DNA from: a virus
Direction: 5' to 3' (one strand)
DNA length: 25,864 nt
Virus genome (UHGV): UHGV-0869939
This document shows, piece after piece, positions 24,173-24,925 of the stretch. The translations under genes were made by a program, and so were the position numbers. The first letter of the stretch is position 1. Every line of letters starts with the position of its first letter. The notes beneath the pieces were generated by a model. That model saw only the letters and a program-made list of their open reading frames with translations, was not told the DNA's origin and searched no databases.

Positions 24173-24853
24173 ATGGAAGTTTTCTGGATAGTTGTTGGTG
24201 TGGTTGCGGTGATTATTTACGTTATCAACCAGAACAAGACTAAGATCTCTGATCGTACGGTCGTTAATCATAACAAAACGATAAAGACCGAAGATGGGGA
24301 GATAACGATTAATCGTACACAGGTGATAGAACACACCTCTACTCAGTTTCAAAAAACTGGAGGTAATGCGCCTAATATTTCCGCACCTCCTGCTTATGAT
24401 AGTGCGATAATCCAGACATATTATAAACAGCAGGAGTTAGCAAAAGAGAGGCAACTGATTCAGCCAAAGCCATTTACAGCTGAGCTTCCACCTGGAGTGT
24501 CAACGCGTCCGGCATATCATGGAAGATTCCCTGGTGATGACACATCGTCTCAGTCACCTAAAAAAGCACCTCAGGCAGTATCAGAGCCAGCAAGAATACC
24601 TTCTGTATCGCCGTCAAAAGAAGAATCATCTAACGAAGTTTCAAGTGCCCGCAAGCAGTGTTTGCGATGCAGAATAACCCTTCCATATGAAAAATTCAGG
24701 AAATCGTCAAAAAATCCAGATGGATTGACTAAGTGGTGTGCAAGGTGTCTCGATGGCCCAAAGAATACACGCCATATGAAGTGGTGCCCAATTTGTAATG
24801 TCCGCAGAAAACGAACCAGTTTTACCCTAATAATCAAAATGCGGATGGCTTAA
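24173..24853 (+). CDS. Membrane-anchored protein with tandem zinc-ribbon-like repeats; reading frame broken near 24802-24805 (probable full extent to 24900)
   Basis: N-terminal TM helix FWIVVGVVAVIIYVI; C-terminal repeat CLRC...FRKSSKNPDGLTKWCARC; a second copy (CPIC...NQFYPNNQNADGLMAWCKTCW) continues in the +2 frame and ends at TAG 24898-24900, right at a terminator. Confidence 0.5.
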   Translation: MEVFWIVVGVVAVIIYVINQNKTKISDRTVVNHNKTIKTEDGEITINRTQVIEHTSTQFQKTGGNAPNISAPPAYDSAIIQTYYKQQELAKERQLIQPKPFTAELPPGVSTRPAYHGRFPGDDTSSQSPKKAPQAVSEPARIPSVSPSKEESSNEVSSARKQCLRCRITLPYEKFRKSSKNPDGLTKWCARCLDGPKNTRHMKWCPICNVRRKRTSFTLIIKMRMA

Positions 24854-24899
24854 TGGCATGGTGCAAAACGTGCTGGGACGAGCACAAAGCGAAACGATA

Positions 24900-24925
24900 G
24901 GCCGCTCTTGCGGCCTTTTCTTTAT
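24900..24925. terminator. Bidirectional rho-independent terminator
   Basis: GGCCGC-TCTT-GCGGCC followed by TTTTCTTTAT; lies between convergent genes. Confidence 0.6.

What the first reader, a model, noticed from the sequence alone, without database searches (positions are those of the whole stretch)
24795..24900. Single-base frameshift in an A-run splits the second zinc-ribbon repeat of the membrane protein
Repeat 1 (CLRC-x8-FRKSSKNPDGLTKWCARC) is intact. Repeat 2 begins in frame (CPICNVRRK) but continues only in the +2 frame (TNQFYPNNQNADGLMAWCKTCW...KR, ending at TAG 24898-24900 immediately before a strong terminator). Restoring one A in the AAAA run at 24802-24805 would give an uninterrupted protein with correct repeat spacing. 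This is either a sequencing or assembly error in a homopolymer, an inactivating mutation, or a slippery site.
Basis: seen in the sequence. Interest (0 to 1): 0.5.

Follow-up and report, generated by a model that had tools for sequence, protein, structure and literature searches.

The report
Sequencing-error frameshift in a prophage gene
The broken second zinc-finger repeat is real in the recorded sequence, but it is most likely a one-base miscount of a run of Ts by 454 pyrosequencing near a poorly covered contig end, so the true gene is probably an ordinary intact 242-residue prophage protein.

Summary
The frame break exists. ORF 24173-24853 (226 aa) loses the second CxxC...CxxC repeat, which continues one frame over to TAG 24898-24900, just before a terminator.

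The missing base is not in the A-run. That run lies at 24808-24811, not 24802-24805. It is missing from the T-run 24820-24823, which is TTTT here. All 64 orthologous loci have CTTTT (54) or TTTTT (10), and every full-length copy is an intact 729-nt, 242-aa gene. One IMG/VR contig (L032) matches the window over 23355-25278 except for one substitution and T5.

The T4 allele was found in no public collection scanned. The window ends in 29 nt of the Roche 454 Rapid-library B adaptor. It also carries three more single-base run-length discrepancies against otherwise identical relatives: A6 vs A5 at 86-91, A3 vs A2 at 117-119 and CC vs C at 25681-25682. All four lie within about 1 kb of an end, while 5.9-24.1 kb has gap-free alignments to independently assembled relatives.

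Best explanation: a 454 homopolymer undercall (about 0.85). A real recent mutation (about 0.12) or slippage (about 0.03) is not excluded. Ordinary; low interest.

The parts
24173..24900 (+). Gene for the membrane-anchored tandem zinc-finger protein as recorded: 728 nt, against 729 nt (242 aa) in all full-length orthologues. It is read as a 226-aa ORF (24173-24853) plus an out-of-frame tail ending at TAG 24898-24900.
24820..24823 (+). T-run where the single base is missing. The window has TTTT; the orthologues have CTTTT (54) or TTTTT (10), and none has TTTT.
24808..24811 (+). It is the same length as in all orthologues and is not the indel site.
24659..24748 (+). Zinc repeat 1 (C163-x2-C166 ... 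C189-x2-C192), intact.
24785..24873 (+). Zinc repeat 2 (C205-x2-C208 in frame 1; C231-x2-C234 at 24862-24873 in the shifted frame), split by the missing T.
24899..24926 (+). Intrinsic-terminator-like hairpin AGGCCGC-TCTT-GCGGCCT plus a T-rich tail, starting within the stop codon (TAG 24898-24900).
24138..24152 (.). Palindrome TTACCTTTAAGGTAA, 20 nt upstream of the ATG. It is conserved in 64 of 65 orthologous loci and is one of six TTACC-N5-GGTAA sites in the window.
25681..25682 (+). Second frameshift: CC where relatives have C. It breaks the tail-fibre gene (ORF 25375-25686) in sequence otherwise identical to E. coli strain 4/0 over 25300-25820.
86..91 (+). A6 where an otherwise identical relative (L054) and L052/L053 have A5. 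It shifts the frame of the Ead/Ea22-like gene.
117..119 (+). AAA where L054, L052 and L053 have AA. This is a second frame shift in the same Ead/Ea22-like gene.
25821..25864 (+). Non-genomic tail. Bases 25836-25864 are the exact reverse complement of the 29-nt 454 'B-Rapid' adaptor CCTATCCCCTGTGTGCCTTGAGAGACGHC. Bases 25821-25835 are probably the key plus a barcode.

Best explanation
The split second zinc repeat is an artefact of base calling. The contig was assembled from Roche 454 Rapid-library pyrosequencing reads. A run of five Ts (24820 onward) was called as four in the thinly covered last kilobase of the contig. The real gene is the same intact 729-nt gene found in related epsilon15/phiV10-like E. 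coli prophages. It encodes a 242-aa protein with an N-terminal membrane helix, a disordered Pro/Ser-rich linker and a C-terminal tandem four-cysteine zinc-finger domain. Shown: the missing base, its position, the intact orthologues, the adaptor, and the other run-length discrepancies. Inferred: low read coverage at the ends, and that the true run is T5.
For: 1. Position: the only gap against orthologues is in the T-run 24820-24823.
2. All 64 orthologous loci have five bases there (54 CTTTT, 10 TTTTT), and 49 of 49 full-length copies examined are intact at 729 nt. Nearly all further loci from NCBI and ENA assemblies carry a 242-aa gene call at this position; a few lack the gene altogether.
3. 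L032 is identical to the window over 23355-25278 except for one substitution and T5.
4. The T4 allele has 0 hits in viral, metagenome and genome contig collections, against 43 IMG/VR contigs for the intact allele. The 226-aa product is not on record.
5. Platform: window 25836-25864 is the reverse complement of the 454 B-Rapid adaptor, 29 of 29 nt (Lib-L B adaptor), and homology to relatives stops exactly at 25820.
6. Three more single-base run-length discrepancies exist against otherwise identical sequences. These are A6/A5 and A3/A2 against L054 (0 mismatches in 2799 nt), and CC/C against strain 4/0 and 63 other genomes at 99% identity or more.
7. All four lie within about 1 kb of an end; under uniform placement this has probability (2000/25820)^4 = 3.6e-5.
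8. The interior has gap-free alignments of 16,259 nt (5900-22158) and 13,275 nt (10785-24059) to relatives, and the roughly 20 conserved genes keep their expected lengths.
9. 454 assemblies are documented to carry artificial frameshifts from homopolymer miscalls. These are commoner in A/T runs and about tenfold commoner at 2x than at 20x coverage (PMC3277595).
10. Both repeats and the RRKRTSFY junction are invariant or nearly so down to 39% identity, so loss of repeat 2 would go against strong purifying selection.
Against: No reads or coverage data are available, so the error is inferred and not observed. T4/T5 is a short homopolymer, which 454 usually calls correctly at normal coverage. Site 24820 is 1,000 nt from the genomic end, further in than the other three discrepancies. 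Prophage accessory genes do acquire real frameshifts, and a very recent mutation would also leave identical flanks and a unique allele. The 1-kb distance threshold in the clustering probability was chosen after seeing the data.
Confidence: 0.85

Rival explanations
1. The deletion is a real, very recent one-base loss (T5 to T4) in this particular prophage copy. It truncates the protein after Ser216 with a 10-residue out-of-frame tail, destroys the second zinc site, and so inactivates an accessory gene of a decaying prophage.
For: The sequence as recorded has T4. The gene is dispensable, since it is absent from related prophages L008, L061, L067, L068, L071 and L076. Neighbouring genes (tail fibre, Ead/Ea22) are also broken in the record, as expected of a decaying prophage. 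Homopolymers are also hotspots for real replication slippage (established knowledge).
Against: All lesions are run-length changes confined to the contig ends, in sequence otherwise 100% identical to relatives, with no accompanying substitutions. The contig carries a 454 adaptor. The allele was found nowhere else. The roughly 22 kb between the ends has no frame-breaking indels.
Confidence: 0.12
2. The T4 allele is real, and full-length protein is still made. A -1 slip of tRNA-Phe on U_UUU (24820-24823), or transcriptional slippage, would give exactly the wild-type ...RTSFYPNN... sequence. That would make the site a programmed or dosage-setting frameshift.
For: A -1 shift at AGU-UUU-ACC re-pairs tRNA-Phe perfectly on UUU 24820-22 and would regenerate the orthologous protein. 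This follows from the sequence and is inference only.
Against: 0 of 64 orthologues have the two-frame arrangement, and most have CTTTT, which needs no slip. There is no canonical X_XXY_YYZ heptamer. There is no stable downstream structure (MFE z-score -0.75). A run of four Us is too short for efficient transcriptional slippage (established knowledge).
Confidence: 0.03

Closest known systems
Artificial frameshifts from homopolymer miscalls in Roche 454 assemblies (Luo et al. 2012, PMC3277595)
   Same: There is a one-base length change in an A/T homopolymer that truncates a gene. It sits in a contig carrying a 454 adaptor, and the same contig has further run-length errors where coverage is expected to be low.
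   Different: Read-level evidence is not available here. The run is only 4-5 bases long, and one of the companion discrepancies is C to CC, which is not a long homopolymer.
Intact orthologues: PHROG phrog_6762; E. coli WP_021524914.1 (AHB29) and WP_157917661.1 (HB37); phage TL-2011b 34521-35249 (JQ011317)
   Same: The DNA is 96-99.9% identical. The position is the same, between the C4/isrK-ant module and the 85-aa gene plus tail fibre. The promoter-proximal palindrome and the terminator are the same. The PHROG profile is 242 positions long and is matched end to end.
   Different: The window copy lacks one T and so reads as 226 aa. The family has no assigned function in any source.
Stc1 tandem zinc-finger domain (Pfam PF12898; PDB 2LUY)
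   Same: Both have two consecutive four-cysteine zinc modules. Stc1 is the best Pfam hit (21.1 bits) and the best Foldseek PDB hit (E 9e-3, probability 0.89) for the C-terminal domain, which was modelled with pLDDT above 90.
   Different: The Pfam score is below the gathering cut-off of 24.8 and the TM-score is only 0.32. Stc1 is a eukaryotic RNAi/heterochromatin adaptor with no membrane anchor. The resemblance is one of fold type only.
N-terminal CxxC...CxxC zinc modules of phage endonuclease VII, HNH and Lar-like proteins (PHROGs 1035, 2633, 5558, 2255; PacI, PDB 3LDY)
   Same: Repeat 2 matches these profiles at E 1e-5 to 3e-10. The motif C-x2-C ... F ... DG ... C-x2-C is shared.
   Different: Only the roughly 45-residue zinc module matches. 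No nuclease domain is present. The PacI match is not significant (E 0.17).
Programmed -1 ribosomal frameshifting (for example dnaX, or phage tail-assembly chaperone G/GT)
   Same: Two overlapping frames could be joined by a -1 shift at a U-rich site.
   Different: There is no conservation of the split, no heptamer and no stimulatory structure. Orthologues are simply in frame.

Membership tests
454 homopolymer-length sequencing error | Sequence produced on the 454 platform | tested here: met
   Window 25836-25864 is the exact reverse complement of the 29-nt 454 B-Rapid adaptor. Homology to relatives ends at 25820.
454 homopolymer-length sequencing error | The discrepancy is a one-base change in the length of a run, in sequence otherwise identical to an independent assembly | tested here: met
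   T4 against T5 in L032, with flanks identical over 1.9 kb apart from one substitution.
454 homopolymer-length sequencing error | Other errors of the same type in the same contig, concentrated where coverage is low | tested here: met
   A6/A5 at 86-91, A3/A2 at 117-119 and CC/C at 25681-82. There are none in 5.9-24.1 kb. Coverage itself could not be measured.
454 homopolymer-length sequencing error | Read pile-up shows mixed or low-quality run-length calls at the site | not testable with these tools
   No reads are available.
Genuine frameshift pseudogene | The same allele is recovered in independent assemblies or reads | tested here: not met
   0 hits for the T4 allele in three collections, 0 of 64 loci, and the product is not on record. 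A private mutation would give the same result.
Programmed -1 ribosomal frameshift site | Two-frame gene organisation conserved in orthologues | tested here: not met
   All 49 full-length orthologues examined are single 729-nt ORFs. Distant homologues are also single ORFs with both repeats.
Programmed -1 ribosomal frameshift site | Canonical slippery heptamer X_XXY_YYZ in the zero frame | tested here: not met
   The zero frame reads ACC-AGU-UUU-ACC, so only a single-tRNA U_UUU slip is possible.
Programmed -1 ribosomal frameshift site | Stimulatory RNA structure a few nucleotides downstream | tested here: not met
   The fold of 24800-24900 has z = -0.75, and 46 of 200 shuffles fold as well.
PHROG phrog_6762 (orthologous group of the intact gene) | Full-length profile match | tested here: met
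   The AHB29 orthologue matches at E 2.4e-147, residues 1-242 on profile positions 1-242 of 242. The window gene is 99% identical in DNA.
Stc1 domain (PF12898) | Score at or above the Pfam gathering threshold | tested here: not met
   21.1 bits against a cut-off of 24.8 for the intact orthologue, and 17.0 bits for the window ORF.
Stc1 domain (PF12898) | Fold similarity to the solved tandem zinc-finger domain | tested here: inconclusive
   Foldseek against 2LUY gives E 9e-3, probability 0.89 and a target-normalised TM-score of 0.32.

The most novel reading that the evidence does not exclude
The T4 allele is real, and the prophage still makes some full-length protein through a -1 slip of tRNA-Phe on U_UUU. 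This would turn an accessory membrane-anchored zinc-finger protein into a low-dose or switchable product. Separately from the frameshift, the intact family (PHROG 6762) is uncharacterised: a membrane helix plus an Stc1-like tandem zinc finger, conserved across Enterobacterales next to the C4/isrK-ant immunity module.
Probability: 0.03. Interest if true: 0.35.

Novelty: not a real feature. Interest (0 to 1): 0.06.

Why it matters
It matters mainly as quality control. The 226-aa truncated protein, the 103-aa tail-fibre stub and the split Ead/Ea22 gene in this contig should not be read as pseudogenes, phase-variable loci or recoding sites. The untrimmed 454 adaptor at 25821-25864 should be removed. 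If the deletion proved real, it would be a routine inactivation of a dispensable prophage accessory gene. The only loose biological thread is that the intact gene family is conserved and has no known function.

Tried and rejected
1. A-run hypothesis: rejected. The A-run has the same length in all orthologues, and the gap is in the T-run.
2. Recurrence of the T4 allele: exact-pattern scans of viral, metagenome and genome contig collections found nothing. Exact look-ups of the 226-aa and 103-aa truncated products also found nothing.
3. Independent assembly of the same strain: Logan contig SRR784983_171 (25,969 nt) carries the window's DUF551 gene. Its far end could not be reached, because the neighbouring proteins are too common for that contig to be listed.
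4. Recoding signal: no downstream RNA structure and no heptamer.
5. Function of the protein: there was no PADLOC hit and nothing significant in NCBIfam. By sequence, PDB gave only E 0.17 to the PacI zinc motif. Pfam Stc1 was below threshold, and Foldseek against 2LUY was borderline.
6. 454 A adaptor at the 5' end: not present.
7. The restored protein could not be submitted for structure prediction, so the 94%-identical cluster representative P0001 was modelled instead.

Full report
**Observation.** The window is the right-hand part of an epsilon15/phiV10-like E. coli prophage. It runs from terminase, portal, capsid and internal virion proteins to ant and the tail fibre. ORF 24173-24853 encodes 226 aa. 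It has an N-terminal hydrophobic helix, a first repeat CLRC-x8-FRKSSKNPDGLTKWCARC, and the start of a second repeat, CPICNVRRKRTS, followed by 10 unrelated residues and a stop. The rest of repeat 2 (FYPNNQNADGLMAWCKTCWDEHKAKR*) is in the frame one base back and ends at TAG 24898-24900. A terminator-like hairpin starts at 24899.

**Where the base is missing.** Six orthologues aligned to 24173-24900 are all 729 nt against 728 nt here. The single gap falls at the T-run 24820-24823, which is TTTT in the window. Most orthologues have CTTTT, and the closest ones have TTTTT. That run has the same length in every orthologue. The true junction is ...CPICNVRRKRTS|FYPNNQ.... In homologues from Superficieibacter, Enterobacter, Citrobacter, Salmonella, Serratia, Providencia, Pectobacterium and Buttiauxella (39-94% identity), all eight cysteines are invariant. 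R212 is invariant as well, and R211, T215, S216 and Y218 are invariant or nearly so.

**Survey of relatives.**
- Of 64 orthologous loci collected from GenBank phages, RefSeq E. coli genomes, IMG/VR, NCBI and ENA assemblies, 54 have CTTTT, 10 have TTTTT and none has TTTT.
- All 49 full-length copies examined in detail are intact 729-nt ORFs. They give 30 distinct proteins whose last 80 residues are almost invariant.
- IMG/VR contig L032 is identical to the window from 23355 to 25278 except for one intergenic substitution and T5. It encodes the window's protein uninterrupted.
- Exact-pattern scans for the T4 allele found nothing in the viral, metagenome or genome collections, while the intact allele is in 43 IMG/VR contigs.
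- The 226-aa product is not on record among 153 billion gene positions.

**Why I call it a sequencing error.**
- The window is identical to the tail-fibre gene of E. coli 4/0 up to 25820 and then diverges completely.
- The last 29 nt (25836-25864) are the exact reverse complement of the Roche 454 'B-Rapid' adaptor CCTATCCCCTGTGTGCCTTGAGAGACGHC (PMC4034615). The last 20 nt also match the 454 Lib-L B adaptor (PMC4482049 and PMC3599821).
- From memory only, the 15 nt in between resemble the key GACT plus Rapid-library barcode RL8, with two mismatches.
- The contig therefore comes from 454 pyrosequencing and ends in an untrimmed read tail.
- The window holds three more single-base run-length discrepancies against otherwise identical sequences:
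  - CC against C at 25681-25682, which breaks the tail-fibre gene. The same 525-nt stretch (window 25300-25824) matches 64 E. coli genomes at 99% identity or more; the strain 4/0 copy aligned here is identical to the window up to 25820 apart from the extra C.
  - A6 against A5 at 86-91, and AAA against AA at 117-119. Together these split the Ead/Ea22-like gene across three frames. L054 has 0 mismatches in 2,799 nt apart from these two gaps.
- All four discrepancies lie within about 1 kb of an end of the 25,820 genomic bases. If they were placed uniformly, this would have probability 3.6e-5. The 1-kb threshold was chosen after seeing the data.
- The interior aligns without a single gap over 16,259 nt (5900-22158) and 13,275 nt (10785-24059) to independent assemblies. 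About 20 conserved genes have exactly the lengths seen in relatives.
- 454 assemblies are documented to carry artificial frameshifts from homopolymer miscalls. These are more frequent in A/T runs and about tenfold more frequent at 2x than at 20x coverage (PMC3277595).
- Low coverage at the ends of this contig is my inference; it is not measured.

**Rivals.** A real, private T5-to-T4 mutation would also give identical flanks and a unique allele. The gene is dispensable, since it is absent from several related prophages. Real mutation does not explain why every lesion is a run-length change at a contig end in a 454 contig. I give it about 0.12.

Recoding is formally possible, because a -1 slip of tRNA-Phe on U_UUU would regenerate the wild-type protein. 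However, nothing supports it. No orthologue is split, most have CTTTT, there is no X_XXY_YYZ heptamer, and the downstream RNA folds no better than shuffled sequence (z = -0.75). I give it about 0.03.

**What the gene is.**
- The intact orthologue matches PHROG 6762 end to end (242 of 242 positions, E 2.4e-147; function unknown).
- An AlphaFold model of the 94%-identical representative P0001 shows:
  - a helix at residues 3-20;
  - a beta hairpin at 25-56;
  - a helix at 77-94;
  - a disordered Pro/Ser-rich linker;
  - a confident C-terminal domain at 160-242 (pLDDT above 90) built from the two four-cysteine modules.
- The best matches of that domain are the Stc1 tandem zinc finger. Pfam PF12898 scores 21.1 bits, below its 24.8 cut-off. 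Foldseek against 2LUY gives E 9e-3.
- It also matches the roughly 45-residue zinc modules at the N-termini of phage endonuclease VII, HNH and Lar-like proteins. No nuclease domain is present.
- There is no defence-system match.
- The basic residues after the helix and the cysteine-rich domain suggest an N-out, C-in inner-membrane anchor with the zinc fingers in the cytoplasm. This is inference.
- The gene lies divergently from an isrK-C4-ant immunity module. It is preceded at -20 by a conserved palindrome TTACCTTTAAGGTAA and followed by a terminator. These are features of an independently regulated accessory gene. Its function remains untested.

**Verdict.** The best-supported explanation is a 454 homopolymer undercall, so this is not a biological feature. 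Interest is low. Read pile-up or re-sequencing across 24820 would settle it.

Noticed in passing
window 25821-25864: This is an untrimmed sequencing adaptor. The last 29 nt are the reverse complement of the Roche 454 B-Rapid adaptor, and the 15 nt before them look like a key plus barcode. Homology to all relatives stops at 25820.
   Followed up: yes
window 25681-25682 (tail-fibre gene, 25375 onward): An extra C (TTCCAT against TTCAT) truncates the tail-fibre ORF at 103 aa. The sequence is otherwise identical to E. coli 4/0 over 25300-25820, and 64 genomes match the stretch at 99% identity or more. It is probably the same kind of artefact.
   Followed up: yes
window 86-91 and 117-119: There are two extra As (A6 against A5, AAA against AA) relative to L054, which is otherwise 100% identical over 2,799 nt. 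They split the Ead/Ea22-like gene over three frames, so the listed ORF 106-702 is only its remainder.
   Followed up: yes
window 23823-24008, minus strand: Rfam matches above gathering score to isrK (23932-24008, 67.7 bits) and C4 antisense RNA (23823-23907, 61.2 bits), directly upstream of ant (23773-23117). This is a P1/P7-type immI antirepressor control module in an epsilon15-like prophage.
   Followed up: partly
window 2491, 5579, 23030, 24045, 24138, 25256: There are six copies of the palindrome TTACC-N5-GGTAA, against 0.02 expected by chance. Five of the six lie in intergenic regions (the copy at 2491 is inside the terminase small-subunit ORF): ahead of the head genes, flanking ant, ahead of the zinc-finger gene and ahead of the tail fibre. 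The sites recur in related prophages L007 and L072. They look like operators of an unidentified regulator.
   Followed up: partly
loci L008, L061, L067, L068, L071, L076 compared with window 24173-24900: The zinc-finger gene is missing from several otherwise closely related prophages. In these, ant is followed directly by the 85-aa gene. The gene therefore behaves as an accessory, moron-like cassette.
   Followed up: partly
window 22162-22987, minus strand: A 170-aa ORF is annotated in a relative as a YafO-family type II toxin, and it overlaps a 108-aa upstream partner. This region varies between related prophages, which carry DUF4760, DUF2335 or other cassettes in its place.
   Followed up: no
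window 5180-5256, minus strand: A tRNA-Arg (anticodon TCT) gene lies between the terminase and portal genes, as in related prophages.
   Followed up: no
L001 (phage TL-2011b, JQ011317) 3709-4797: The GenBank record annotates this region only as a misc_feature, 'similar to hypothetical protein', starting about 360 nt upstream of the ATG. Yet its 729-nt ORF is intact.
   Followed up: no
L057 (Logan SRR784983_171, 25,969 nt): This contig is almost the same length as the window and carries the window's DUF551 protein exactly. It may be an independent assembly of a very similar prophage or the same isolate. Its zinc-finger end could not be fetched.
   Followed up: partly
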